Positions 25,426-44,571 of a stretch of 64,000 nucleotides of DNA are shown one piece after another. How positions within the stretch are numbered: position 1 is the first letter of the stretch; the number at the start of each line of letters is the position of its first letter. The stretch spans positions 10,062 through 74,061 of the forward strand of contig CANQMS010000003.1 of assembly GCA_947624995.1 (NCBI GenBank), in the 5' to 3' direction. Origin of the DNA: an uncultured Clostridia bacterium (GTDB lineage Bacteria > Bacillota > Clostridia > Oscillospirales > CAG-272). Below the pieces are notes generated by a model. That model ran no database searches. It was given only the letters and a program-made list of their open reading frames with translations, and was not told the origin of the DNA. Position numbers and translations under genes: made by a program.

Positions 25426-25463
25426 CCGGGGGGAGGAACCTTTGAAAAGGTTCCTCCCCCCGG
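25426..25463 (+). terminator. Long GC hairpin after the PAP2 gene (terminator-like, no clear U-tract)
   Basis: CCGGGGGGAGGAACCTTT-GA-AAAGGTTCCTCCCCCCGG forms a perfect 18-bp stem. Confidence 0.5.
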
Positions 25464-25644
25464 TCCCCCCTCTTCAAAACTTTTCATTACTTGGTTTGGC
25501 TTACAGCGAGCGTGAGCACTTTTTCCACAGCTTTTTGCATGTAAAAAACAATGCTCCTTAAATTTTTCTTTTTCATCTTCATCCCAACCTTTTTGACGCT
25601 TTTGATGTCTATATAACGAAAGCTTTCAACGAAAGGAATTAAAA

Positions 25645-30733: not shown

Positions 30734-30782
30734 GTGAGTTTCGAAAGTAAATTCCGCAGCGGAATTTACTTTCGAAACTCAC
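30734..30782. promoter_or_regulatory. 49-bp perfect palindrome in the abfA / M42 divergent intergenic region
   Basis: GTGAGTTTCGAAAGTAAATTCCGC-A-GCGGAATTTACTTTCGAAACTCAC has 24-bp arms with no mismatch. Confidence 0.6.
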
Positions 30783-33034: not shown

Positions 33035-34015
33035 ATGTATACACTGCTGAAAGATCTCATAAAGCCGCTCGGCGTCTCCGGGCGTGAGGGCGCTGTCCGC
33101 GCCGTGATCGAAGAAAAGATCTCGCCGTACGTCGACGAGGTATATACGGACGCGCTCGGCAACCTGATCGCGCACAAGCGCGGACCGGAGGGCGCGCCGA
33201 AGCTCATGTTTGCCGCCCATATGGACGAGATCGGCTTTTTCGTCACCGACATCGACGACGGCGGCAGAGTCTGTTTCTCCGCCGCCGGAGGCATCCGCTT
33301 TGACGCCGCCGCATACGGCGAGGTCGTGTTCGAAAACGGCACGCACGGCGTTCTCGTCGCGAATGACGACGCGAAATCTCCCGCCGCGGACTGCTGCTAC
33401 GTCGATATCGGCGCCTCCTCGCGCCGCGACGCCGAGCGCCGCGTACGGACGGGGGACACGTTTGCCGTCGCGTCCTCGCTGCGCCGCATCGGCGCTCATC
33501 TCGCCGCGGGCCGCCCAGTCGACGACCGCATAGGCTGCGCCGTCCTGATAAAGACCGCGATGAGCGCAAATTCGCCGAGATACGACGTTTACTACACGTT
33601 CACCGTACAGGAGGAGGTCGGCTGCCGCGGCTCGAAGACAGCCGCATACGCCATCATGCCGGACATCTCCGTCGCCATCGACATAACGAAGACGGGCGAC
33701 ACCCCCGGCGCGCCCAAAATGGCGGTCCGGCTCGGGGACGGCGCCGCGATAAAAGTGAAGGATTCCTCCGTCATCTCCGACCCTGCGCTCGTCGAAGAAA
33801 TGGCAAAACTCTGCCGCGAGAGGGGAATAAAGCATCAGTTCGAGGTTTTGACCCGCGGCGGGACGGACACGTCCTCGATGCAGTCCGCCGGAGCGGGCAG
33901 CCGCGCCGGATGCATCTCGATCCCGACGAGATATTCGCACACGCCGGTCGAGATGATCGACCTGCGGGACGCTGAGGCGTGCGCCGCGCTCGCGGCGGCG
34001 CTGGTCGAAGGATAA
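33035..34015 (+). CDS. M42-family metallopeptidase, paralog 3
   Basis: FAAHMDEIGFFVTDI, VDDRIGCAV and VQEEVGCRGS are present. Confidence 0.85.
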   Translation: MYTLLKDLIKPLGVSGREGAVRAVIEEKISPYVDEVYTDALGNLIAHKRGPEGAPKLMFAAHMDEIGFFVTDIDDGGRVCFSAAGGIRFDAAAYGEVVFENGTHGVLVANDDAKSPAADCCYVDIGASSRRDAERRVRTGDTFAVASSLRRIGAHLAAGRPVDDRIGCAVLIKTAMSANSPRYDVYYTFTVQEEVGCRGSKTAAYAIMPDISVAIDITKTGDTPGAPKMAVRLGDGAAIKVKDSSVISDPALVEEMAKLCRERGIKHQFEVLTRGGTDTSSMQSAGAGSRAGCISIPTRYSHTPVEMIDLRDAEACAALAAALVEG

Positions 34016-34024
34016 AAAAGCCGC

Positions 34025-34068
34025 AAAAAAGCTCCCCGGCGCCGCAAAACGCGGCGCCGGGGAGCTTT
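34025..34068. terminator. Bidirectional terminator between the M42 operon and hsp20
   Basis: AAAAAAGCTCCCCGGCGCCGC-aaaac-GCGGCGCCGGGGAGCTTT, with an A-run on one side and a T-run on the other. Confidence 0.7.
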
Positions 34069-34108
34069 CTATCACAGTGATACGCGGGGAAACGCTGCAC
34101 GCACTGTC

Positions 34109-34567
34109 TTATTCAATGTCGAGCCTTCTCGACTCGGGGAGCACTGCCTGCTTTTTCGGCATCGCCAGCCTGAGCACGCCGTTTTCGTACTTCGCCTTTA
34201 TCTTCTCCGCGTCAACGGACGAGATGTCGAACTGGCGGCTGTACTGTCCGTAAGAACGCTCGAGGCGGACGTACTTGTCCTTTTTATCCTTGTCCTCGTG
34301 CTCGGAATGGCGCTCCGCATTTATCGTCAGAACGTCGCCCGATATGTCGAGGTGGATGTCCTTCTTGTCAAATCCGGGCAGGTCGGCTTCGAGCAGATAG
34401 TGGTCGCCCTCGTCCGAAATGTCCGTTTTGAATTCCGCTATGTCGCCGCTCTCAAAGAAGCCCGTGAACGGCTCCTCGAAGAAGCGCCTTTCGAATTCCT
34501 CCATCTCCTTGAAGGGGTTGTAGGAAATGCTGTTGTTCTTTCTGTGGTACGGTCTGAGTTCAAACAT
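34109..34567 (-). CDS. Hsp20/alpha-crystallin family small heat-shock protein
   Basis: Alpha-crystallin domain: DISDEGDHYLLEADLPGFDKKDIHLDISGDVLTINAER...ENGVLRLAMPK. Confidence 0.9.
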   Translation of the reverse strand: MFELRPYHRKNNSISYNPFKEMEEFERRFFEEPFTGFFESGDIAEFKTDISDEGDHYLLEADLPGFDKKDIHLDISGDVLTINAERHSEHEDKDKKDKYVRLERSYGQYSRQFDISSVDAEKIKAKYENGVLRLAMPKKQAVLPESRRLDIE

Positions 34568-34749
34568 AATAAAACCTCCGAAAAATAATTATTCTGTCCG
34601 CCCTTTGTTTTTTGTTCCGATGGGGTAGGCGGGGAATCGGTCAGTTCGCTTTCAGATGTTCATCATACTCGCCTCTTTCTTTTTACGGTTATATTGTAGC
34701 CCGAATATATGAAAAATATGTGACGGAACCATGAAGTCGCGCTGAAACT

Positions 34750-34776
34750 TTAGCACTCTTGTGCCGAGAGTGCTAA
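34750..34776. promoter_or_regulatory. CIRCE element (HrcA operator)
   Basis: TTAGCACTC-TTGTGCCGA-GAGTGCTAA is a perfect match to the consensus TTAGCACTC-N9-GAGTGCTAA. It lies 183 nt upstream of the hsp20 ATG. Confidence 0.85.
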
Positions 34777-34820
34777 AAGCATTTTCTACATCTTTTTATA
34801 CTATTTATACTATACACCGA

Positions 34821-34849
34821 TTGACACGCGGGCGGCGGGGTGATATAAT
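34821..34849 (+). promoter_or_regulatory. Consensus sigma-A promoter of the four-gene TerB/ATPase/helicase operon
   Basis: TTGACA (34821-34826), a 17-nt spacer, then TATAAT (34844-34849). The ATG at 34917 is preceded by GGGGAGGCAGGGG. Confidence 0.7.
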
Positions 34850-34916
34850 CAAAAGATACAGAACTTATGTTTGCGTAACGCGGACAGGCGCAAAAATACG
34901 GGGAGGCAGGGGCAAA

Positions 34917-36740
34917 ATGGCGGACAGACACGATATTCCGGACGATTTTTGGGACCTCTCGTCCCTTTTGCCGAAAAAGCGTCCCCCCGTCATGCGCGAA
35001 CGCAAGCCGGACGTTGAGACGGTCCCGATAGATATCGGCGTGCCGGACAAGAGCGCGCGCGGTCACGTTATAGGCTCGCTCTCCGTCCGCTTCCGCGAGG
35101 TGGACGGCTCCAAAAGCCGCGCCGATGTCACCGTCCGCATTGAGGTGGACGGCGCTAAAAACCGCGCCGACGTCTACGTCCGCACGAAGGATGACGCGCG
35201 GAACACGCATAAGGACACGTCCACGGTAACGGTCGCGTCCGCGGGCGAGCCGCACAGCGACGACTCGCTCCGCCTCCCGCCGAGGGAGTCCCTGCGCTCC
35301 GCGCCCGCGGCAGAGCTTATTGACGAATACGAACCGGAGGGCGGACTTCTCCGCCGCGTGCGCGTCATGCGGTGGCCGTCGCGCTACAGCTTTTACGAAC
35401 AGTTCCGCCACGACGCAAAGCGGTATTTTTCCGTCTCCGGCACCGAATCCCCCGCCGTCGACTTTTTCTCATACACGCCCCAGTACAGGCAGATGACAAA
35501 GACGCAGCTCGCGTATTACTTCTGGTGGCGCGAGAACGCCGTCCGCGGCGTGTGGCTGCCCGCCTCGTTTTCATACATTCTTCTTTATATCTACGAAATA
35601 ATAAATCTTCACGAGGTCATCCCGCCGCCGGAGGGGCTGCGCAGGCTCGTCGGCGTGTGGCTCGCGTGCCGCGACAAGCACCGCGTGCTCGACAAATATC
35701 TCTCCGAGTGGGTCGCGGACTACTGCCTGATCCACCGGCTGCCGCCCCCGCGCGAAGAGCTCGCGCCGATAATGTCCTCCGTCATGGAGGCGGCGTCGTT
35801 CCGCGAATTTTATATGTCCGGCGGCAGCGACGGGATCACGGTAGAAACGCTCATCGACCTCTCCTCCGACTACAACTGGCGCAAAAGCAAATTCGCCGTC
35901 GAGGACGGCGGCGTCGCCGCCGCATATGCGCGCCACATCCCCGCCGCCGTCGCATACGTCGCGGACAAGAGCGGGGACGCGAGATTTTCGACGGGCGGAA
36001 TGAGCTCCGCCGTCGTCTCGCGGGACGCGTTCTGCGGCTCGCTCTGCGCACACAACGTCAAGTGCCGCATCGACATCGAATACCTCTCGTACACCCGCTC
36101 GCGCGAGCTGCGCTCGCTTTTGACGGAGCTTGTCAAATACTGCGAGAACAGGCTGCGTGCGGCTCTCGGCATACGCGCGCGCCTGCGCGTCAACGGACTT
36201 GACCCCGCCATCTCGGCGCTCGCCGACGAATACTTTGACCGCGAATTTCCGGAGACAAAAAAGCCCGTCAAGCTGTCAAAAGAGGAGCAGCTCGCCGCCG
36301 AGGAACGCAGATACGACGCCGAATATGACGCACTCTCGCACGGCTTTGACTCGCGCGGAGCCGCCGAAATAGAGCGCGCCTCGTGGGCATCTACCGATAT
36401 ACTCGCACCCGAAGACGAGCCGTTTGCGGCGGAAGAGACAAACGACATGCCAAGGGATCCGCAGGATGTCCCGCCCGCCCCCGTCGCAGACGAACAGGTC
36501 GGGCAGGACGCGCGGGACGGCGGGATCTTTTCCCGCCTCGACGCGGATGCCGCAGAATATCTGCGCCTCTCGCTCTCGGGCGGCGGCGCCGGCGAATACT
36601 GCCGCGCGCACGCGCTGTATGAGGACGAGCTCGTCTCCCGCATAAACGAAATCTCCGCCGACGTCATCGGCGACATAATAATCGAGCCCGACGGCAACAC
36701 TTACCGCATCGTCGAGGACTACCGCGACGACATAAAATAA
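34917..36740 (+). CDS. TerB-N / TerB-C domain protein (Shango SngA-like component)
   Basis: DFFSYTPQYRQMTKTQLAYYFWWRENAVRGVWLPASFSYILLYIYEIINL matches the TerB-N pattern as I know it. The C-terminus LDADAAEYLRLSL...EDELVSRINEISADVIGDIIIEPDGNTYRIVEDY matches TerB-C. The ORF-track start at 34761 runs through the promoter and CIRCE, so I prefer the ATG at 34917. Confidence 0.75.
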   Translation: MADRHDIPDDFWDLSSLLPKKRPPVMRERKPDVETVPIDIGVPDKSARGHVIGSLSVRFREVDGSKSRADVTVRIEVDGAKNRADVYVRTKDDARNTHKDTSTVTVASAGEPHSDDSLRLPPRESLRSAPAAELIDEYEPEGGLLRRVRVMRWPSRYSFYEQFRHDAKRYFSVSGTESPAVDFFSYTPQYRQMTKTQLAYYFWWRENAVRGVWLPASFSYILLYIYEIINLHEVIPPPEGLRRLVGVWLACRDKHRVLDKYLSEWVADYCLIHRLPPPREELAPIMSSVMEAASFREFYMSGGSDGITVETLIDLSSDYNWRKSKFAVEDGGVAAAYARHIPAAVAYVADKSGDARFSTGGMSSAVVSRDAFCGSLCAHNVKCRIDIEYLSYTRSRELRSLLTELVKYCENRLRAALGIRARLRVNGLDPAISALADEYFDREFPETKKPVKLSKEEQLAAEERRYDAEYDALSHGFDSRGAAEIERASWASTDILAPEDEPFAAEETNDMPRDPQDVPPAPVADEQVGQDARDGGIFSRLDADAAEYLRLSLSGGGAGEYCRAHALYEDELVSRINEISADVIGDIIIEPDGNTYRIVEDYRDDIK

Positions 36741-36750
36741 GGAGGACAGG

Positions 36751-38103
36751 ATGGAATATATAAACACCGAGGCGGCTGCCCGCGTGCCGAAGCGCATACT
36801 ATCCCAGCTCATGAGCTCGCTTTCGGCGGGCGTCGTCCCGCGCGCCGGCGCGCCGTACATCGCCATCGGGCGCACGGAAGAGATCGCGGCGCTCACCTCC
36901 GACCTTTCGCGCGTCGCCGAGGGGGAGGGCGCGATGCGCTTTCTCATCGGGCGGTACGGCTCCGGCAAGAGCTTTCTCATCCAGCTTTTGCGCGGGTACG
37001 CGCTCGAGCACGGCTTTGTGACCGCGGACTGCGACCTCTCGACCGAACGCCGCCTCTGCGGGACATCCGGCTCCGGTCTTGCGACGTATCGCGAGCTCAT
37101 GCGCAATTTAGCGACGAAATCGTCCCCGGACGGGGGCGCGCTCCCCCAGCTTTTGGCGCGCTGGATCTCCGATATCAAATCCTCCGTCGCCGCCTCCGGC
37201 AAAGATGTCGGGAGCGCGGAATTCGACCGCGCCGTAAAAAAGCGCATCTTCGACGTTATCCGCGAGCTTGAGGGAGGCGTCGGCGGCTTTGACTTTTCGC
37301 TCGTGCTCACAAATTACTATGACGCGTGCGAGGACGGAGACGAGGACAAAAAGAGCGCCTGCCTGCGCTGGCTGCGCGGCGAGTTCTCGACAAAGACCGA
37401 GGCAAAGGCGGCGCTGCGCGTCGGCTCCATCGTGAACGACGACAACTGGTACGACGAAATAAAGCTGACGGCGCGCCTCGCCGCCGGTATCGGCTACAGG
37501 GGGCTCGTCGTATTCATCGACGAGTGCGTCAACCTATATAAGATCCCGAACCGCATCTCACGTGAGAACAACTACGAAAAGATCCTCTCGATGTATAACG
37601 ACACGCTCGAGGGCAGGGCGGAGCATCTCTGCCTCGTCTTCGGCGGGACGCCGCAGTTCTTGGAGGACCGCAGGCGCGGGCTCTACAGCTATGAGGCGCT
37701 GCGCGGCAGGCTCGCCGAGGGGAGATTCGACAGCGGCGAATACAAAAACATGATCGGTCCCGTCATCCGGCTGCGCCGCCTCTCGGACAATGAGCTGTTG
37801 GCGCTCGTTCTGCGCGTCACCGCGCTGCACGCGCGCTACTATGAATGGACGCCGCGCATCTCCGACGGCGACCCCGAGGCATTCGTCCGCGCGTCCCTCG
37901 AGCTCGCCGGGGCAAACATCATGATAACGCCGCGCGAAATAATCCGCGACTATATCTCGATACTGAATATCCTATATCAGAACCCCGAGGCAAAGTTTGC
38001 CGACATAATCGGCACCTCGCTGACGCTGACGCCCGCCGCCGGGCAAAGCGACCCCGACGAGACCGCCGCCTCCGCATTCGATCCTAACGACATAGTCATA
38101 TAA
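36751..38103 (+). CDS. P-loop ATPase, DUF2791 / BrxD-like (Shango SngB-like component)
   Basis: Walker A GRYGSGKS (36949-36972) and Walker B LVVFIDEC. The N-terminal LSAGVVPRAGAPYIAIGRTEE region is typical of this family. AAGGAGG lies upstream, and the start is 10 nt after the previous gene. Confidence 0.75.
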   Translation: MEYINTEAAARVPKRILSQLMSSLSAGVVPRAGAPYIAIGRTEEIAALTSDLSRVAEGEGAMRFLIGRYGSGKSFLIQLLRGYALEHGFVTADCDLSTERRLCGTSGSGLATYRELMRNLATKSSPDGGALPQLLARWISDIKSSVAASGKDVGSAEFDRAVKKRIFDVIRELEGGVGGFDFSLVLTNYYDACEDGDEDKKSACLRWLRGEFSTKTEAKAALRVGSIVNDDNWYDEIKLTARLAAGIGYRGLVVFIDECVNLYKIPNRISRENNYEKILSMYNDTLEGRAEHLCLVFGGTPQFLEDRRRGLYSYEALRGRLAEGRFDSGEYKNMIGPVIRLRRLSDNELLALVLRVTALHARYYEWTPRISDGDPEAFVRASLELAGANIMITPREIIRDYISILNILYQNPEAKFADIIGTSLTLTPAAGQSDPDETAASAFDPNDIVI

Positions 38104-38140
38104 CCGCTCCCGCCGTAAAATTTTTTGAAAAGAGAGGGGT

Positions 38141-38186
38141 GTGGGGAGAGGAAAACTTTTTTATAAAAAAGTTTTCCTCTCCCCAC
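38141..38186. repeat. Perfect 46-bp palindrome between the ATPase and helicase genes
   Basis: GTGGGGAGAGGAAAACTTTTTTA|TAAAAAAGTTTTCCTCTCCCCAC has 23-bp arms with no mismatch. Confidence 0.9.
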
Positions 38187-38200
38187 ATGAAAAAAACTAC

Positions 38201-40456
38201 ATGAGAAACGCAGAAGAGGTCATCGGGCGGTTCGCGCCGTTCATACAGGAATACATTTATTCTCACGGCTGGGACAGGCTCCACGAGGTACAGCTCCTCG
38301 CCGCGGAGACGATTTTCTGCACCGACAACAACCTTCTTATCACGTCGGCGACGGCGTCCGGGAAGACGGAGGCGGCGCTTTTCCCGATACTCTCCGAATT
38401 CTGCTCCGACCCGCCCAAAAGCGTCGGCGCCGTCTACATCGCGCCGCTGAAGAGTCTCATCAACGACCAGTTCGCCCGCATCGACGAGCTCCTCGACATG
38501 ACCGGCATCCCCGTTTACCACTGGCACGGCGACGTTGCGCAGTCACACAAATCAAAGCTCTTAAAATCGCCCGCCGGCATACTCCAGATCACGCCGGAAT
38601 CGCTTGAATCTATGCTGATGAACCGCCCGAACGACATCCCGCGCCTGTTCGGGGATCTGCGCTACGTCATCATCGACGAGATACACACTATGACGAACAC
38701 CGACCGGGGCAATCAGGTCATCTGCCAGATAGAGCGCATCTCGCACGCGATAGGGCGCCGCCCGCGCCGCATAGGGCTGTCCGCGACCGTCGGCGACCCG
38801 GAAACGGCAGCGCGCTGGCTTTCGGGCGGGGACGACCGTGTCTGCGACATACCGCGCGCGCCCGAGGCGCCGCTGCGGTGGCGGCTCGGTCTTGAGCACT
38901 TCTTCCTCGCGGATGAGGAAACGCTGCACACCGGGACGCACGAGATACGCAAAACACCGTCCTCCGGCGACCTCGCCCTTGACCCGGAGGACGCCCCGAC
39001 CGAGATAGACCCCGGGTACGAATACGTCTACGACTGCGTCAAGGGCAGGCGCGCCCTCGTCTTTTCGAACTCGCGCGAGGAGACCGAATACGTCTGCGCG
39101 ACGCTGAGGCAGATCGCCGAGAACCGGCGCGAGCCGGACATCTTCCTCATACACCACGGGAACCTCTCCGCCTCGATACGCGAAGAGGCGGAGCTGCTAC
39201 TGAAGAGCGAGGAGGAGCGGATGGTCGCGTGCGCGACGGTCACGATGGAGCTCGGAATCGACATCGGCAAGCTCGAGCGCATCGTTCAGATCGGCTCGCC
39301 GAACTCCGTTTCGAGCTTTCTTCAGCGGCTCGGGCGCTCGGGCAGGAGGGGCGACCCGCCGGAAATGATGATGGTCTTCCGCGAGGAGCCGCACGTCCCG
39401 AACACGCCGCTGCCTCAGCTCATGCCTTGGGAGCTTTTGCGCGCGATAGCGATAATCCAGCTCTATATCGAGGAGCGCTTCATCGAGCCGCCCTCGACGA
39501 GAAAAATGCCGTTTTCGCTCCTGTTCCAACAGACGCTCTCCGTGCTCATCTCATCGGGCGAGCTCACGCCGAAAGCCCTTGCCGACCGCGTCCTCTCGCT
39601 GCCCCCGTTTGCATCCGTTGACCGCGAGGATTATAGGACGCTGCTCGTTTCGATGATAAAAAACGATTTTCTTGAATACACCGACGAGGGCGGGCTCATA
39701 ATCGGAATAAAGGGCGAACGGCTGACGTCCGGGTTCAAATTCTACGCCGTCTTCAAGGATTCCGAGGACTACACCGTCCGCTGCGAATCGGACGAGATCG
39801 GAACGATCTCGGAGGCGCCGCCCGTCGGCGACAGATTTGCGCTCGCGGGCAGAGTCTGGGAGGTGGAGGAGCTCGACCTTGCGCGCAAGCTCATATATGT
39901 CAAGTCCGTCGGCGGTAAGATGGAAATTTCGTGGCCCGGCGAGCTCGGCGAAATACACACGCGCATTCTTGAGCGCATGTACCGTGTCCTCGCCGAGGAC
40001 ACGCAGTACCCATACCTCAAAAAAGGCGCCGCCGCCCGCCTTGACGCGGCGCGGCATGTCGCCCGCAACACCGGAATGCTCGAGCGGCCGCTTGTCCCGC
40101 TCGGCGGGCTCTCGTACTGCATGTTCCCGTGGCTCGGGACGCGCTCGTTCAGGACGCTGCGCCGGTACCTGTCCAAGAACGCGCAAAAATATAAAATCTC
40201 CGGCATCGAATACGAGGGCTGCTACTTTATCGAATTCAAAATGGAGCGCGGCGACGCCGCCTCCCTCATGGACGCAATAAACCGCGACTTTTCCGCCGGT
40301 GTCGACAAATACTCGCTCGTCGGCGACAATGAAACGCCCGCATTCGACAAATACGACGACTACGTTCCCTCGGAGCTTCTGCGGCGCGCCTATACGGAGG
40401 AGCGCCTCCGCACGGACGAGATCGAATACCGCGCAAAACACGGCTGGATGCTCTGA
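38201..40456 (+). CDS. Lhr-like DExH-box superfamily-2 helicase (Shango SngC / BrxHI-like component)
   Basis: Motif I SATASGKTEAA, YIAPLKSLINDQ, motif II IIDEIHTM, and helicase-C motifs (ATVTMELGIDIG, QRLGRSGRRG), followed by a long C-terminal domain. The start is uncertain: the ATG at 38201 has no SD, and the GTG at 38141 lies inside the palindrome. Confidence 0.8.
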   Translation: MRNAEEVIGRFAPFIQEYIYSHGWDRLHEVQLLAAETIFCTDNNLLITSATASGKTEAALFPILSEFCSDPPKSVGAVYIAPLKSLINDQFARIDELLDMTGIPVYHWHGDVAQSHKSKLLKSPAGILQITPESLESMLMNRPNDIPRLFGDLRYVIIDEIHTMTNTDRGNQVICQIERISHAIGRRPRRIGLSATVGDPETAARWLSGGDDRVCDIPRAPEAPLRWRLGLEHFFLADEETLHTGTHEIRKTPSSGDLALDPEDAPTEIDPGYEYVYDCVKGRRALVFSNSREETEYVCATLRQIAENRREPDIFLIHHGNLSASIREEAELLLKSEEERMVACATVTMELGIDIGKLERIVQIGSPNSVSSFLQRLGRSGRRGDPPEMMMVFREEPHVPNTPLPQLMPWELLRAIAIIQLYIEERFIEPPSTRKMPFSLLFQQTLSVLISSGELTPKALADRVLSLPPFASVDREDYRTLLVSMIKNDFLEYTDEGGLIIGIKGERLTSGFKFYAVFKDSEDYTVRCESDEIGTISEAPPVGDRFALAGRVWEVEELDLARKLIYVKSVGGKMEISWPGELGEIHTRILERMYRVLAEDTQYPYLKKGAAARLDAARHVARNTGMLERPLVPLGGLSYCMFPWLGTRSFRTLRRYLSKNAQKYKISGIEYEGCYFIEFKMERGDAASLMDAINRDFSAGVDKYSLVGDNETPAFDKYDDYVPSELLRRAYTEERLRTDEIEYRAKHGWML

Positions 40457-40484
40457 ACAAGAAATATAAGGAGTTTGGCGGAGG

Positions 40485-42926
40485 ATGAAGATAAACTACG
40501 ACGCGGAAACGAATACAGTCACCGTCGCTGTGCGCGAGCTCGTCGACTTTCTCTGTCGCTCCGGCGACATAGGCGGGCGCGCCTCAGTCACCGCGGAGGA
40601 GGGCAAGCTCGCCCACAAACGCGCCGAGGACGGGAGCACCTCCGCGATGCTCGAGGTCCCGCTCGAGCTTTTGACCGAGTATGACGGCATAAACTACCGC
40701 CTTACGGGTCGCGCAGATATGATAACGCCCGGCGACAGCCTCGACACGGTCGAGGAGCTGAAAACAACGCCGTCGGCGTTTTTCGGCGGCACCTCCGACA
40801 TCCCGCCCGCACACATAGCCCAGTGCGTGCTGTACGCGTTCATGTGGTGCTCCGGGACCGGGCGGGATTCCGCCGCCGTGCGGATAACGTACATCCCGAA
40901 AAACGGCGGGCGCGAGCGGAGCTTTGAATGTGTCTTTTCCGCCGACGAGCTGCGCGCGGAATCGTCTGCGCTGCTCGCAAAATATGCGCGCTGGGCGCGC
41001 CTCTCCGTCGAGCGCGCGCGCAGCCTCCCCGCCTTTGTTAAATCCATGCGCTTCCCGTATGGGGAGCCTCGGGACGGTCAGGTCGAATTCATGACCGCCG
41101 TCATGCGCGCCGCGCGCAAGCATGAAACGCTGCTCATAGAGGCGCCGACAGGCATCGGCAAGACGATGGCGGCGCTCTACCCGTCCGTAAAGGCGCTCGG
41201 CGCCGGTTATGCCGACAGGATCTTTTACCTAACGTCCAAGACCTCGATCCGACTCGCCGCCGAGGACGCCGCCGGGGCGCTGCTCGCGTCCGTCCCCTCG
41301 CTGCGCGCCGTCTCCATCCTCGCGCGCGAGCGCGTCTGCCCCGAAGCGGAGGCGCTGCGCTCCGGCGCGATCTGCTCCGCCGAGCTCTGCCCGCGCGCGC
41401 GCGGACACTACGAGCGCGTCGAGGGCGCGCTGTGGGAGCTTGTCGGCACGCTCGGCGCGGGAAAAACGCTCACCGCCGACGACATCTCCGCCGTCGCCGA
41501 GCGACACCGCGTCTGCCCGTATGAGCTTTCGCTCGACGCCGCCGAATTCTGCGACATTATAATCTGCGATTACAATTACGTCTTTGACCCGCGCGTTTAT
41601 CTGCGCCGCTTTTTCGGTGACGAGCCGGACGGGGGTCACCGCGAGGAAAAATATATTCTGCTCTGCGACGAGGCGCACAACCTGCCGGACAGGGCGCGCG
41701 ATATGTTCTCCGCGTCAATAAAGCTCTCCTCCGTCGAGCGCCTGCTGCCATTGACGGAGGGCGCGTCCGACGCGCACACCTCTCTCGTCTCCCTCGCCGA
41801 CTGCATACGCGACCTGCGCGCGCGGTTCGAGGATATCACGCTCGACGGCAAGGGGCGCGAGCGCGGATTTTATCTCGGCAGCGAAGCCTTCGCCGACATC
41901 GTCGCCGCCGCCGCGAAGGCGGCGGACGAGTGCGGACGGGAGGCGTTCTCCCTGCGCGGGGCGGGGACGGAGGACGAGCGCCGCCTCGCCCGCGAGCTTG
42001 CCTCCGCGCGGCGCGCGCTCTCCGATTTTGCCTCGTCCTCCGAAGGATTTGACAGGCGGCACGCCGCCTACGCCGAAATATTCGACGGCGATATCAAATG
42101 CTCGCATATCTGCCTTGACGCCTCCGAACACCTCGCCGCCTCGATGCGCCGAGCCTCCTCCGTCATAATGTTCTCGGCAACTCTCGAGCCGCCGGACTAT
42201 TTTGCGCGCGTGCTCGGCTGCCGCGATTACGGCTCGCTCGCGCTCGAATCCCCGTTTGACGAATCGAATCTCTGCCTTTTGGCGGCGGACAAGCTCAGCA
42301 CGCGCATGGCGGACCGCGAGGCGAGCGCGCCCGAGGTCGCGGCGATGATATACGCGGTCGCGATGGCGAAGACCGGCAACTATATCTGTTACTTCCCGTC
42401 GTACCGTTACCTTGAGCTCATCTGCCGCGAGTTCGACCTCCGGTACGGGCACGAGGAGATAGACATCGCCGTGCAGAAGCAGCACATGACGGAACGCGAG
42501 CGGGCGAACTTTCTTGCCGAATTCCACCCCAATCCTCGGCGGACAAAGGTCGGCTTCTGCGTGCTCGGCGGCGTGTTCTCCGAGGGCGTCGACCTGCCCG
42601 GGGACAGGCTCTCCGGCGCCGTCATCGTCGGCGTCGGGCTGCCGCAGCTCTCGGCGGAATCGAACCTGCTCCGCGACTACTACGAGCGCGTCTGCGAGCG
42701 GGGGTACGAGTTCGCATACGTTTTCCCCGGGATGAACAAGGTCTTACAGGCGGCGGGGCGCGTCATCAGGAGCGAGCACGACCGCGGCGTCGTTCTGCTC
42801 ATTGACGACAGGTTTGCCTCGCACGAGTACAGGGCGCTCTTTCCCCCGCACTGGCGCGGGCTGCGCTACGTCGGCGACAGGCGCTCGCTCGGGATGGCGC
42901 TCGCCGCGTTCTGGAATAAAAAGTGA
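40485..42926 (+). CDS. RecB-type PD-(D/E)xK nuclease domain fused to an XPD/DinG-type Fe-S superfamily-2 helicase
   Basis: The N-terminus carries GRADMI...VEELKT...AQCVLY (D, ExK and QxxxY nuclease motifs). It is followed by EAPTGIGKT, four Cys (VCPEAE, AICSAE, ELCPRA, RVCPYE), CDYNYVFDP, CDEAHNL and the C-terminal LQAAGRVIRSEHDRGVVLLID. Confidence 0.8.
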   Translation: MKINYDAETNTVTVAVRELVDFLCRSGDIGGRASVTAEEGKLAHKRAEDGSTSAMLEVPLELLTEYDGINYRLTGRADMITPGDSLDTVEELKTTPSAFFGGTSDIPPAHIAQCVLYAFMWCSGTGRDSAAVRITYIPKNGGRERSFECVFSADELRAESSALLAKYARWARLSVERARSLPAFVKSMRFPYGEPRDGQVEFMTAVMRAARKHETLLIEAPTGIGKTMAALYPSVKALGAGYADRIFYLTSKTSIRLAAEDAAGALLASVPSLRAVSILARERVCPEAEALRSGAICSAELCPRARGHYERVEGALWELVGTLGAGKTLTADDISAVAERHRVCPYELSLDAAEFCDIIICDYNYVFDPRVYLRRFFGDEPDGGHREEKYILLCDEAHNLPDRARDMFSASIKLSSVERLLPLTEGASDAHTSLVSLADCIRDLRARFEDITLDGKGRERGFYLGSEAFADIVAAAAKAADECGREAFSLRGAGTEDERRLARELASARRALSDFASSSEGFDRRHAAYAEIFDGDIKCSHICLDASEHLAASMRRASSVIMFSATLEPPDYFARVLGCRDYGSLALESPFDESNLCLLAADKLSTRMADREASAPEVAAMIYAVAMAKTGNYICYFPSYRYLELICREFDLRYGHEEIDIAVQKQHMTERERANFLAEFHPNPRRTKVGFCVLGGVFSEGVDLPGDRLSGAVIVGVGLPQLSAESNLLRDYYERVCERGYEFAYVFPGMNKVLQAAGRVIRSEHDRGVVLLIDDRFASHEYRALFPPHWRGLRYVGDRRSLGMALAAFWNKK

Positions 42927-42955
42927 AGGCGGCGTACCATAAAATTACATTTTGC

Positions 42956-42984
42956 TTTTTCGGGGGCATATTGTGCCCGAAAAT
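42956..42984 (+). terminator. Imperfect hairpin after the four-gene operon
   Basis: TTTTTCGGGGGCA-tat-TGTGCCCGAAAA. The stem has a 2-nt bulge and the U-tract is weak. Confidence 0.4.
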
Positions 42985-43062
42985 TCCCCGCGCTTGTGTT
43001 TTTACACAGTAAAGCGCCCGATATCGGCTTAATAATTGTGAAAACGGAGACAGCTTCCCATA

Positions 43063-43091
43063 TTGATTTTTCCCGGCGAACATAATATAAT
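43063..43091 (+). promoter_or_regulatory. Sigma-A promoter of asnS
   Basis: TTGATT, a 17-nt spacer, then TATAAT. Confidence 0.6.
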
Positions 43092-43167
43092 ATAGGAGCT
43101 GTCCTTTTGAAAATGAATTTATAACGTCCGCAATGTTGCAAAACAGCGGCGCAGAAAGGATCACACG

Positions 43168-44571
43168 ATGGAAAGAAAAGACATAACGACGGTACGGTCA
43201 ATCTTCGCCTCTCCCGAAAAATTCGCGGATCGCGAGCTCCACGTCGCAGGCTGGGCGCGCAAGCTGCGCGCCTCAAACGCGTTCGGCTTCATCGAGCTGA
43301 ATGACGGGACGTACTTCTCGAACCTTCAGATAGTGTTTGAGTCGGGCATCGTCCCGAATTACGACGAGATCGCGCACCAGAACATCGGCTGCGCGCTCCA
43401 CGTCCGCGGAAAGCTCATGCTGACGCCCGACGCAAAGCAGCCGTTCGAGGTCCACGCCTCCGAGATCCGCGTCGAAGGAACGTCGACCCCGGACTACCCG
43501 CTCCAGAACAAGCGGCATACAATGGAATATCTCCGCTCCCTCGCGCACCTGCGCCCGAGGACGAACACTTTTTCCGCCGTGTTCCGCGTCCGCAGCGAGG
43601 CAGCATTCGCGATCCACAGCTTCTTCAACGAGCGCGGCTTCGTCTATGTCCACACCCCGATCGTCACCTGCTCCGACTGCGAGGGCGCGGGCGAGATGTT
43701 CCGGCTCACGACGCTCGACATCGAAAACCCGCCGCGCGGCGAGGACGGTCGCGTCGACTACACTAAAGATTTCTTCGGCAAGCCCGCGAACCTGACCGTT
43801 TCCGGTCAGCTCAACGTCGAGACCTTCGCCCAGGCATACTCGAACGTGTACACGTTCGGTCCGACGTTCCGCGCCGAAAACTCGAACACCCCGCGCCATG
43901 CCGCCGAATTCTGGATGATAGAGCCCGAGATCGCATTTGCCGACCTCGAGGACGACATGGAGCTCGCCGAGGCGATGATAAAGCACATCATCAGCCACGT
44001 GCTGAAGACGTGCCCCGCCGAGATGGAATTCTTCGACAAGTTCGTCTCCCCCGGCAAGATCGCGCAGCTCAAGGCGCTCGTCGAAAGCGACTTCGGCAGA
44101 GTTACGTACACCGAGGCGGTCGAGCTGCTCAAAAACTCCGGCGCGGACTTCAAATTCCCCGTCTTCTGGGGCATGGACATGCAGACGGAGCACGAGCGGT
44201 ACCTGACCGAGAAAATTTTCGGCAAGCCCGTCTTCGTCACCGACTACCCGAAGGAGATCAAGGCTTTCTATATGCGCCTGAATGACGACGGGAAGACAGT
44301 TGCCGCCTGCGACATGCTCGTGCCGGGCGTCGGCGAGATGATCGGCGGTTCCCAGCGCGAGGAGCGCCTTGACTATCTGCTCGAGGCGATAAAGCGGTGC
44401 GGGCTGCGCGAGGAGGATTACTCGTGGTACCTCGAGCTGCGCCGCTTCGGCAGCACGAAACACGCCGGGTACGGACTCGGCTTTGACAGACTTCTTATGT
44501 ATATGACCGGTATGCAGAACATACGCGACACGGAGCCCTTCCCGCGCACGGCGGGGAGCGCCGAGTTCTGA
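43168..44571 (+). CDS. asnS: Asparagine--tRNA ligase
   Basis: Class IIb synthetase with an N-terminal OB fold ([22 protein letters not shown]). Also [21 protein letters not shown] and [12 protein letters not shown]. Confidence 0.93.

What the first reader, a model, noticed from the sequence alone, without database searches (positions are those of the whole stretch)
34917..42926. Four-gene TerB-N/C + BrxD-like ATPase + Lhr-like helicase + nuclease-DinG helicase operon: a Shango-like defence candidate with an extra effector gene
Seen in sequence: four co-directional genes sit behind a consensus TTGACA-17-TATAAT promoter (34821-34849) and end at a hairpin (42956-42984). Gene A carries a TerB-N-like core (FFSYTPQYRQMTKTQLAYYFWWR...SYILLYIYEIINL) and a TerB-C-like tail. 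Gene B has GRYGSGKS / VVFIDEC and an N-terminus typical of DUF2791/BrxD ATPases. Gene C is an Lhr-type DExH helicase (TASGKT, DEIH). Gene D joins a RecB-type nuclease (GRAD, EELK, QCVLY) to an XPD/DinG-type helicase with four Fe-S cysteines and a DEAH box. Established knowledge: a TerB-type protein plus an ATPase plus a helicase is the reported composition of the three-gene Shango anti-phage system. A DUF2791 ATPase with an Lhr-like helicase is the BrxD+BrxHI accessory pair of BREX types 2 and 6. Comparative genomics of Ter systems has linked TerB-N/TerB-C proteins to such ATPase/helicase neighbourhoods. Inference: here the triad is extended by a nuclease-helicase fusion that is not part of canonical Shango as I know it. 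No PglX/PglZ or other BREX core gene is present. This suggests a four-component variant in which gene D is the DNA-degrading effector. The mechanism of this family is, to my knowledge, unresolved. The locus sits between hsp20 and asnS, has no integrase, transposase or tRNA nearby, and its composition resembles its neighbours.
Basis: partly seen in the sequence, partly recalled or inferred. Interest (0 to 1): 0.85.

Follow-up and report, generated by a model that had tools for sequence, protein, structure and literature searches.

The report
Shango defence operon beside EndoDinG helicase
Three of the four genes are an ordinary copy of the known anti-phage system Shango, and the fourth is the bacterium's own, already described EndoDinG nuclease-helicase that lies next to it only in this one lineage, so the proposed four-part defence system is mostly not supported.

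Summary
The four co-directional genes, the consensus promoter and every quoted motif are present. Genes A, B and C match the PADLOC SngA, SngB and SngC models nearly end to end (E 6e-47, 2e-161, 3e-240). They are a canonical Shango, not merely Shango-like. Gene D is an EndoDinG, a PD-(D/E)xK nuclease fused to an Fe-S XPD/DinG helicase. It aligns over its full length to the solved FmaDinG (PDB 9KQH, E 3.5e-121). This family is large and was described in 2025-26. Of 80 EndoDinG loci in reference genomes, 78 have no Shango, and many keep the same D-(asnS)-aspAT order. Of 80 Shango loci in metagenomes, none has an EndoDinG. Plasmid Shango is three genes. The adjacency is confined to one uncultured Clostridia lineage, where Shango is vertically inherited and sits near D in seven different arrangements. 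The tight four-gene operon is a derived state. The most likely origin is one ancestral insertion beside a resident helicase gene. A lineage-specific functional link is not excluded. One sub-lineage keeps SngC and D without SngA or SngB. A conserved LexA-type SOS box overlaps the Shango promoter.

The parts
34821..34849 (+). Shango promoter: TTGACA, 17 nt spacer, TG-extended TATAAT
   Evidence: 12/12 consensus match. The -35 and extended -10 are conserved in all 12 aligned SngA upstream regions. A promoter of this type lies upstream of SngA in 46 of 55 other clostridial Shango loci.
34861..34872 (+). LexA (SOS) box-like palindrome GAACTTATGTTT, 11 nt after the -10
   Evidence: It matches the clostridial operator GAAC-N4-GTTT and differs at 2 of 14 positions from the C. 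difficile recA operator AGAACAAATGTTTG (PMC4234289). It sits at the same position in 12 loci while the spacer and 5' UTR vary. It is also present in L089-L092 and L162. LexA binding itself is inferred.
34917..36740 (+). sngA: TerB_N plus TerB_C protein (607 aa)
   Evidence: Pfam TerB_N 62.3 bits and TerB_C 33.7 bits, both above their cut-offs. PADLOC SngA E 5.9e-47, covering 69-524 of 528 profile positions.
36751..38103 (+). sngB: BrxD-like (DUF2791) AAA+ ATPase (450 aa)
   Evidence: Pfam BrxC_BrxD E 1.4e-154. PADLOC SngB 535.7 bits against BrxD 167.9 bits. Walker A GSGKS and Walker B DEC are invariant in alignment A2.
38125..38187 (+). Intercistronic REP-like element: GAAAAGAGAGGGG followed by a perfect 24+24 nt palindrome
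   Evidence: Perfect inverted repeat. A hairpin is kept with compensatory changes in L083, L085 and L001, and is smaller in L081. Further copies lie at window 25426-25479 and in the L001 SngC-D spacer. It is therefore a dispersed element, not specific to Shango.
38201..40456 (+). sngC: Lhr-like SF2 DExH helicase (751 aa)
   Evidence: Pfam DEAD, Helicase_C and a weak WH_Lhr. PADLOC SngC 797.9 bits against BrxHI 418 bits. NCBIfam Lhr-type models at about 1e-60.
40485..42926 (+). EndoDinG: N-terminal PD-(D/E)xK endonuclease plus Fe-S XPD/DinG 5'-3' helicase (813 aa). It is adjacent to Shango and probably co-transcribed with it, but is not shown to be part of it.
   Evidence: Full-length match to FmaDinG 9KQH, E 3.5e-121. 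H44, E57, R76, D78, E91, K93 are invariant in alignment A1, as are C285, C302, C344; C297 is nearly invariant. These correspond to the residues mutated in FmaDinG. Only 28 nt with an AAGGAG/GGAGG ribosome-binding site separate it from sngC.
42956..42984 (+). Hairpin after gene D (weak terminator candidate)
   Evidence: The stem is present, there is no U tract, z -1.28. The terminator scan does not list it.

Best explanation
The locus holds two units that happen to be joined. Unit 1 is genes A-C with the promoter, a canonical three-gene Shango anti-phage system. It consists of SngA (TerB-N/TerB-C protein), SngB (BrxD-type ORC/Cdc6-like AAA+ ATPase) and SngC (Lhr-like SF2 helicase). In this uncultured Clostridia lineage Shango is chromosomally fixed and vertically inherited. 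By analogy with the BrxD-BrxHI dyad of type 2 BREX, the inferred mechanism has three steps. SngB oligomerises and loads or activates SngC on invading or aberrant DNA. SngA acts as sensor or regulator. Phage replication is thereby blocked. The operon has a near-consensus promoter overlapped by a LexA-type box, so it is predicted to be repressed by LexA and induced by DNA damage. Unit 2 is gene D, the lineage's resident EndoDinG. Its family member FmaDinG was shown in vitro to be a Mn-preferring endonuclease coupled to a 5'-3' helicase. D sits in its ancestral position upstream of asnS-aspAT. Shango was inserted next to it once in the ancestor of this lineage. In the sub-lineage that includes the window, the spacer shrank to 3-28 nt. 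D is therefore now probably read through from the Shango promoter. Shown here: family memberships, distributions, synteny, promoter and box conservation. Inferred: the Shango mechanism, LexA control and co-transcription.
For: A-C match the SngA, SngB and SngC models nearly full length and far better than the BREX models. Pfam agrees. Shango is defined and validated as three genes (PMC10250203; bioRxiv 2022.05.11.491447). Klebsiella and Paenibacillus plasmid Shango loci are three genes with no DinG. D is an EndoDinG (PMC13650095; PMC11981726). The family has more than 7400 full-length relatives across Bacillota. 78 of 80 EndoDinG genome loci lack Shango, including 47 of the 49 with at least 8 kb upstream. 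23 Shango-free loci keep D-(asnS)-aspAT. 0 of 80 Shango loci carry a D-like gene in 835 kb of flanks. In the lineage, SngC identity tracks asnS identity: 94/93, 91/90, 92/91, 87/87, 80/81 %. That pattern indicates vertical descent from one insertion. Shango orientation and the intervening genes vary: yjeF, a histidine phosphatase, an acetyltransferase, an LRR protein, and a 554-nt repeat spacer. The tight operon is therefore derived. D diverges relative to aspAT at much the same rate with or without Shango nearby. The D-aspAT synteny, which has no known functional basis, persists over much greater distances than the Shango-D synteny.
Against: In all 12 informative loci of the lineage a Shango gene lies within 2.4 kb of D, despite several local rearrangements. 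In L088 the D-asnS link is broken but the Shango-D link is kept. In L169/L170 and L173 an intact SngC stays 48 nt upstream of D with no SngA or SngB in 7.6 kb upstream. Four lineages have gaps of 3-28 nt that leave no room for a separate D promoter. Shango has no recognised nuclease, and D would supply one. Whole genomes could not be scanned, so a second EndoDinG copy elsewhere in these genomes is not excluded.
Confidence: 0.7

Rival explanations
1. In this lineage the locus is a true four-component Shango variant. EndoDinG is the DNA-degrading effector, recruited or licensed by SngABC.
For: The genes are co-directional with 3-28 nt gaps in four lineages, and a single strong promoter lies upstream. 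A Shango gene lies within 2.4 kb of D in all 12 lineage loci across seven arrangements. All EndoDinG catalytic residues are intact. Shango lacks a nuclease.
Against: All cases descend from what looks like one insertion, so there is one independent event. 78 of 80 EndoDinG loci and 80 of 80 other Shango loci lack the partner. In six lineages Shango is inverted or separated from D by unrelated genes, so the two are not one operon there. The three-gene system is sufficient for defence in Pseudomonas. D shows no clear change of evolutionary rate in the Shango lineage.
Confidence: 0.12
2. SngC and EndoDinG are the real partners. SngC is an Lhr-like helicase and EndoDinG a 5'-3' helicase with a nuclease. 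Together they would form an SOS-induced bipolar helicase-nuclease for DNA repair or processing, in the manner of AddAB. On this view the clostridial Shango genes are a vertically inherited genome-maintenance module rather than a mobile defence island.
For: An SngC-D pair persists without SngA or SngB in L169/L170 and L173. SngC is as conserved as asnS across the lineage. A LexA-type box lies on the promoter. Clostridial SngA-SngB pairs lie in core contexts beside alaS, ftsK and bacA. No mobile-element genes were seen among the ORFs scanned in the window, and it has no tRNA.
Against: No SngC-like gene lies next to EndoDinG in 78 other genome loci. The LexA box is absent from 47 of 55 other clostridial Shango promoters. 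It is found upstream of EndoDinG in only 2 of 48 loci outside the lineage. The same gene family is experimentally anti-phage and plasmid-borne in Proteobacteria. No interaction data exist. The 3'-5' polarity of SngC is assumed from Lhr and was not tested.
Confidence: 0.08
3. The locus is a remnant or accessory module of a BREX system (BrxD plus BrxHI), or D is a type IV CRISPR CasDinG.
For: B hits BrxD (1e-49) and C hits BrxHI (1.7e-125). D hits a PADLOC model labelled typeIV_DinG (7.8e-121).
Against: The SngB and SngC models score 3.2-fold and 1.9-fold higher in bits. NCBIfam BrxD scores 168 bits against a cut-off of 350. No PglX, PglZ, BrxC or Cas protein was found among the window's large ORFs or the neighbours. 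D keeps the four Fe-S cysteines and an N-terminal nuclease. CasDinG has a degenerate Fe-S module and lacks that N-terminal nuclease. D's best structural relative is EndoDinG. NCBIfam csf4 scores 28.7 bits against a cut-off of 400.
Confidence: 0.02

Closest known systems
Shango (SngA/SngB/SngC) anti-phage system; Millman et al. 2022, Johnson et al. 2023 (P. aeruginosa PA14, E. coli)
   Same: It has the same three families in the same order: TerB-N protein, DUF2791/BrxD-like ATPase, DEAD/DEAH Lhr-like helicase. The genes are contiguous and co-directional. The PADLOC Sng models match nearly end to end.
   Different: It lies in a core-genome setting between hsp20 and asnS rather than in a defence hotspot or on a plasmid. 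It is vertically inherited across a lineage, with SngC as conserved as asnS. It has a LexA-type box on the promoter. It is followed, with a 28-nt gap, by an EndoDinG gene.
EndoDinG subgroup of DinG-like helicases; FmaDinG of Finegoldia magna, PDB 9KQH (PMC13650095; classification in PMC11981726)
   Same: The full-length alignment has E 3.5e-121. The N-terminal PD-(D/E)xK module has the same H, E, D, E-x-K catalytic set. It has the four-Cys Fe-S domain, the DEAH box and Helicase_C_2.
   Different: D belongs to a divergent branch, at most 44% identical to most family members, with several small indels. Here and in close relatives it lies directly behind a Shango operon, a context not mentioned in either paper.
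BrxD-BrxHI dyad of type 2 BREX (PMC12839542)
   Same: It has homologous ATPase and helicase families that occur as a tightly linked pair. The proposed logic is that an AAA+ ATPase loads or activates an Lhr/Ski2-like helicase.
   Different: There is no PglX, PglZ, BrxC or PglW here. The pair is joined to a TerB-N/TerB-C protein instead. The sequences fit the Sng models much better than the Brx models.
CasDinG (Csf4) of type IV-A CRISPR-Cas
   Same: Both have an XPD/DinG-type helicase core. A PADLOC model with that label matches D.
   Different: CasDinG has a degenerate Fe-S module, no N-terminal nuclease, and lies beside csf genes and a CRISPR array. D has neither of the first two features, no cas genes were found nearby, and csf4 scores far below its cut-off.

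Membership tests
Shango | SngA: protein with a TerB N-terminal domain (and a TerB-C tail) | tested here: met
   TerB_N 62.3 bits (cut-off 25), TerB_C 33.7 bits (cut-off 26.3). PADLOC SngA 5.9e-47.
Shango | SngB: DUF2791/BrxC_BrxD-type P-loop ATPase with intact Walker A and B | tested here: met
   BrxC_BrxD 515 bits. PADLOC SngB 2.4e-161. GSGKS and DEC are invariant in A2.
Shango | SngC: SF2 DEAD/DEAH helicase of the Lhr-like type | tested here: met
   DEAD plus Helicase_C. PADLOC SngC 2.8e-240 over 8-713 of 720 positions. Lhr-type NCBIfam models at about 1e-60.
Shango | The three genes are contiguous and co-directional | tested here: met
   Gaps of 10 and 97 nt on one strand behind one promoter.
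Shango | Confers protection against phages | not testable with these tools
   Known only for the Pseudomonas and E. coli systems.
   2 of 80 EndoDinG loci have Shango, both from the window's own lineage. 0 of 80 Shango loci have EndoDinG. Plasmid Shango has three genes.
EndoDinG | N-terminal PD-(D/E)xK nuclease domain with the catalytic H, E, D, E-x-K | tested here: met
   H44, E57, D78, E91 and K93 are invariant in A1. They align to FmaDinG H40, E54, D75, E88 and K90. PDDEXK_1 is detected in relatives P0056 and P0106 but not in D itself.
EndoDinG | XPD-like core (two motor domains, DEAH box) with a four-Cys Fe-S domain | tested here: met
   DEAD_2 and Helicase_C_2. C285, C302 and C344 are invariant, C297 is nearly invariant, and the DEAH box (D395, E396, A397, H398) is conserved.
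EndoDinG | Full-length similarity to a characterised member | tested here: met
   9KQH_A E 3.5e-121, query residues 12-791 against chain residues 5-748.
EndoDinG | Endonuclease and 5'-3' helicase activity | not testable with these tools
   Shown only for FmaDinG in vitro.
BREX type 2/6 | Core genes PglX (methyltransferase), PglZ and BrxC in the locus | tested here: not met
   The neighbours are M42 peptidases, hsp20, asnS, an aminotransferase and nadE. The other large ORFs of the window are RecQ, a sigma factor, CotH and others.
Type IV-A CRISPR CasDinG | Adjacent csf/cas genes and a CRISPR array; degenerate Fe-S module | tested here: not met
   No cas genes among the neighbours. No repeat array in 34000-43400. 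The Fe-S cysteines are intact. csf4 scores 28.7 bits against a cut-off of 400.

The most novel reading that the evidence does not exclude
In this uncultured Clostridia lineage, Shango and EndoDinG have become one SOS-controlled four-gene module. SngC would be a 3'-5' Lhr-like motor and EndoDinG a 5'-3' motor with an endonuclease. The two would work together as a bipolar helicase-nuclease on phage or damaged DNA. SngA and SngB would act as sensor and loader. That would give Shango the nuclease effector it otherwise lacks. It would also give EndoDinG its first physiological role.
Probability: 0.12. Interest if true: 0.75.

Novelty: new member of a known kind. Interest (0 to 1): 0.38.

Why it matters
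Neither Shango nor EndoDinG has a known in vivo mechanism. This analysis shows that the attractive four-gene reading rests on a single lineage-specific juxtaposition, so the locus should not be catalogued as a new defence-system type. It still leaves three cheap, testable leads. First, the Shango promoter carries a conserved LexA-type box, which predicts induction by DNA damage. Second, this Shango is vertically inherited and as conserved as a tRNA synthetase, which is unusual for a defence system. Third, the lineage provides a natural experiment: ABCD operons, inverted ABC beside D, and CD without AB. That range could show whether the Shango helicase cooperates with a resident nuclease-helicase.

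Tried and rejected
BREX remnant was rejected. The Sng models outscore the Brx models, and no BREX core genes were found among the window's large ORFs or the flanking genes.

Type IV CasDinG was rejected.

D as a mobile or defence-island gene found little support. Plasmid hits are mostly chromosome-sized replicons. The one inspected, in Listeria, has a core-type context. The 'phage' hits are unannotated contigs and are uninformative.

EndoDinG as a generally SOS-regulated gene was rejected. A LexA-like box lies upstream in only 2 of 48 loci outside the lineage.

A LexA box as a general feature of clostridial Shango was rejected. It is absent from 47 of 55 other loci.

Insertion scars were sought as flanking direct or inverted repeats around the Shango cassette. 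None was convincing.

Rfam found no known RNA in 30-48 kb, only spurious miRNA matches to hairpins.

The SngB-SngC palindrome as a Shango-specific regulator was rejected, because it is a dispersed REP-like element.

L089-L092 (SngA-SngB only) and L169/L173 (SngC-D only) share no flanks, so they could not be linked as two halves of one split system.

The Anantharaman et al. 2012 Ter paper could not be retrieved. What is said about it rests on citations in other papers and on my own knowledge.

Full report
OBSERVATION

The four + strand ORFs are real. A is 34917-36740, B is 36751-38103, C is 38141-40456 and D is 40485-42926. The conserved start of C is the ATG at 38201. A 12/12 TTGACA-17-TATAAT promoter with a TG extension lies at 34821-34849. 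The flanks are three M42 peptidase genes and hsp20 upstream, and asnS, an aspartate aminotransferase gene and nadE downstream. The window has no tRNA. No BREX core or Cas protein was found among its large ORFs. No integrase or transposase appeared among the ORFs I scanned, but the smaller ORFs were not scanned. GC content is like the neighbours. The hairpin at 42956-42984 exists. It has no U tract and is not more stable than shuffled sequence.

WHAT THE GENES ARE

Pfam gives TerB_N plus TerB_C for A and BrxC_BrxD for B. It gives DEAD, Helicase_C and a weak WH_Lhr for C, and DEAD_2 plus Helicase_C_2 for D.

The PADLOC models SngA, SngB and SngC match A, B and C almost end to end (5.9e-47, 2.4e-161, 2.8e-240). 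They beat BrxD and BrxHI by a wide margin. NCBIfam BrxD stays far below its cut-off. A-C are therefore a canonical Shango. Shango is the three-gene TerB/ATPase/helicase system shown to protect Pseudomonas and E. coli. Its mechanism is still unknown.

Gene D aligns over its full length to PDB 9KQH, E 3.5e-121. 9KQH is FmaDinG, the first characterised EndoDinG. It is a Mn-preferring PD-(D/E)xK endonuclease coupled to a 5'-3' Fe-S helicase, and its in vivo role is unknown. The subgroup was named in a 2025 review. H44, E57, R76, D78, E91 and K93 are invariant across 24 family members, as are three of the four Fe-S cysteines, and the DEAH box is conserved. These include the equivalents of the FmaDinG residues whose mutation abolishes nuclease activity.

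IS D LINKED TO SHANGO?

D has more than 7400 full-length relatives, mostly in Clostridia and other Bacillota.

A scan of one genome per species returned 80 EndoDinG loci with up to 10 kb of flank. Only L001 and L002 carry Shango genes. These two have the closest D sequences in that scan, at 60% and 56% identity. Of the 49 loci with at least 8 kb upstream, 47 have no Shango. In 25 loci D is followed by aspAT, with asnS in between in 5 of them. 23 of those 25 have no Shango. D in the window therefore occupies the ancestral position of its family.

The reverse survey gave 80 SngB loci from metagenomes. No D-like gene was found in 835 kb of their flanks. Shango on a Klebsiella IncR plasmid and on a Paenibacillus megaplasmid consists of three genes. 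EndoDinG in Listeria lies in a core context with no Shango.

INSIDE THE LINEAGE

I looked up the contexts of D homologues that are 50-74% identical. In all 12 informative lineage loci a Shango gene lies within 2.4 kb of D. The arrangement differs:
- A-B-C-D with gaps of 3-28 nt: window, L081/L082, L083/L084, L085.
- A-B-C, then a 554-nt spacer full of tandem repeats, then D: L001.
- Shango inverted and divergent from D across 199 nt: L171.
- Shango inverted, with a histidine phosphatase gene between it and D: L172. L086 has a yjeF gene as well. L002 shows the same Shango and D coordinates as L086, but its intervening genes were not called.
- Shango inverted, with an LRR gene between it and D: L087.
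- A-B-C, then yjeF, then an acetyltransferase gene, then D, with no asnS downstream: L088.
- SngC-D alone, with a 48-nt gap and no SngA or SngB in 7.6 kb upstream: L169/L170. L173 shows the same SngC-D pair but has only about 300 nt of sequence upstream of SngC.

SngC identity to the window tracks asnS identity almost one to one: 94/93, 91/90, 92/91, 87/87, 80/81, 81/80 %. Shango has therefore descended vertically with the chromosome. All these loci most simply go back to one insertion. For a given aspAT divergence, D diverges about as fast inside the lineage as outside it. The D-aspAT synteny has no obvious functional basis, yet it survives to far greater divergence than the Shango-D synteny. 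Local inertia is therefore enough to explain the persistence.

Three observations argue mildly for more than inertia. These are the SngC-D pair without SngA or SngB, the retention of Shango-D in L088 where D-asnS is lost, and the operon fusion itself.

REGULATION

The promoter belongs to the Shango cassette. The -35 and the extended -10 are conserved upstream of SngA in all 12 aligned loci. A promoter of the same type precedes SngA in 46 of 55 other clostridial Shango loci.

Eleven nt after the -10 lies GAACTTATGTTT (34861-34872). This fits the clostridial LexA operator GAAC-N4-GTT(T/C). It differs at 2 of 14 positions from the C. difficile recA operator, for which LexA binding was demonstrated. 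The box is perfect in 8 of the 10 lineage loci aligned, and L081 and L083 have one extra mismatch. It is also present in L089-L092 and L162. The promoter spacer and the 5' UTR vary around it.

A single occurrence in 64 kb is not significant by count alone. The case rests on conserved position and sequence. Most other clostridial Shango promoters lack the box. Only 2 of 48 EndoDinG genes outside the lineage have one. I infer LexA repression and DNA-damage induction of this operon. In the fused loci that would extend to D. This is a prediction, not a result.

MECHANISM

The best-supported account is as follows. SngB is an ORC/Cdc6-like AAA+ ATPase of the BrxD type. With SngC, an Lhr-like helicase, it forms the same dyad as BrxD-BrxHI. 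For that dyad a loader or activator role of the ATPase has been proposed. SngA, with TerB-N and TerB-C domains, is the sensor or regulator. EndoDinG is a resident DNA-processing enzyme. In this genome it is merely transcribed from the same promoter. None of these steps is demonstrated for Shango.

The rivals are a real four-component system with D as effector, and an SngC-EndoDinG bipolar helicase-nuclease under SOS control. Neither is excluded. Both rest on one evolutionary event.

VERDICT

The Shango call is confirmed and sharpened.

The locus is a new member of a known system next to a member of a known helicase family. It has lineage-specific features worth a small experiment: the LexA-type box, vertical inheritance, the operon fusion and the SngC-D pair.

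Noticed in passing
window 34750-34776: A perfect CIRCE element, TTAGCACTC-N9-GAGTGCTAA (the HrcA operator). It lies between the divergently placed hsp20 gene and the Shango promoter and is the only copy in the window. It most likely controls hsp20. It lies 44 nt upstream of the Shango -35.
   Followed up: partly
window 34861-34872; same position in L001, L002, L086-L088, L171, L172, L089-L092, L162: A LexA/SOS box-like palindrome, GAAC-N4-GTT(T/C), conserved 11 nt after the -10 of the Shango promoter. It predicts DNA-damage-inducible Shango in this lineage. It is absent from most other clostridial Shango promoters.
   Followed up: partly
window 38125-38187 and 25426-25479 (-); L001 9945-10005: A dispersed REP-like element: GAAAAGAGRGGGG followed by a perfect hairpin of about 20 bp (GGGGAGAGGAAAAC...). 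One copy sits between sngB and sngC. The stem is kept by compensatory changes in L083, L085 and L001. The sngC start behind it has no obvious Shine-Dalgarno sequence.
   Followed up: partly
L169/L170 7652-12457; L173 318-5126: An intact SngC orthologue (75% identity) lies 48 nt upstream of EndoDinG. In L169/L170 no SngA or SngB is found in the 7.6 kb upstream. L173 shows the same pair but has only about 300 nt upstream of SngC. The region downstream of D in L169 is AT-rich and unrelated to asnS.
   Followed up: partly
L089, L115, L118, L120, L143, L149, L157 (metagenome loci): Many clostridial SngA-SngB pairs have no SngC within 10 kb. They sit beside core genes (alaS, ftsK, bacA) or beside LRR and radical SAM genes. 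22 of 49 loci with at least 3 kb downstream lack SngC. These are split or two-gene versions of Shango.
   Followed up: partly
window 38201-40456 versus L081, L083, L085, L001, L002, L086, L087: SngC amino-acid identity equals asnS identity almost exactly across the lineage (94/93 down to 80/81 %). SngB homologues at 60-65% identity are very numerous in Clostridia. That is an unusually conserved, vertically inherited 'defence' module.
   Followed up: partly
L001 9447-10000: The spacer between sngC and D is filled with tandem repeats: a 47-nt unit in 2.3 copies, and units of about 19-38 nt in 4-7 copies (GGGAGAAACTTTTTCGTTT-like). It looks like an insertion of repetitive DNA that split the operon.
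   Followed up: partly
window 35097-35186: A 45-nt tandem duplication (82% identical) in the non-conserved N-terminal part of sngA. It encodes EVDGSKSRADVTVRI and EVDGAKNRADVYVRT. This region lies outside the PADLOC SngA profile.
   Followed up: no
window 34028-34068: A perfect 18-bp inverted repeat between the convergent M42 peptidase and hsp20 genes. It is a likely bidirectional terminator.
   Followed up: no
window 30734-30782: A perfect 24+24 nt palindrome (GTGAGTTTCGAAAGTAAATTCCGC / GCGGAATTTACTTTCGAAACTCAC). It lies in the intergenic region between the arabinofuranosidase gene and the first M42 peptidase gene. It is possibly an operator.
   Followed up: no
L177 11561-12946 (Paenibacillus megaplasmid): A fourth co-directional gene lies 25 nt after sngC. 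It encodes a 461-aa protein with a weak GdpP-like GGDEF match. It is not a DinG. Shango may pick up different accessory genes in different lineages.
   Followed up: partly
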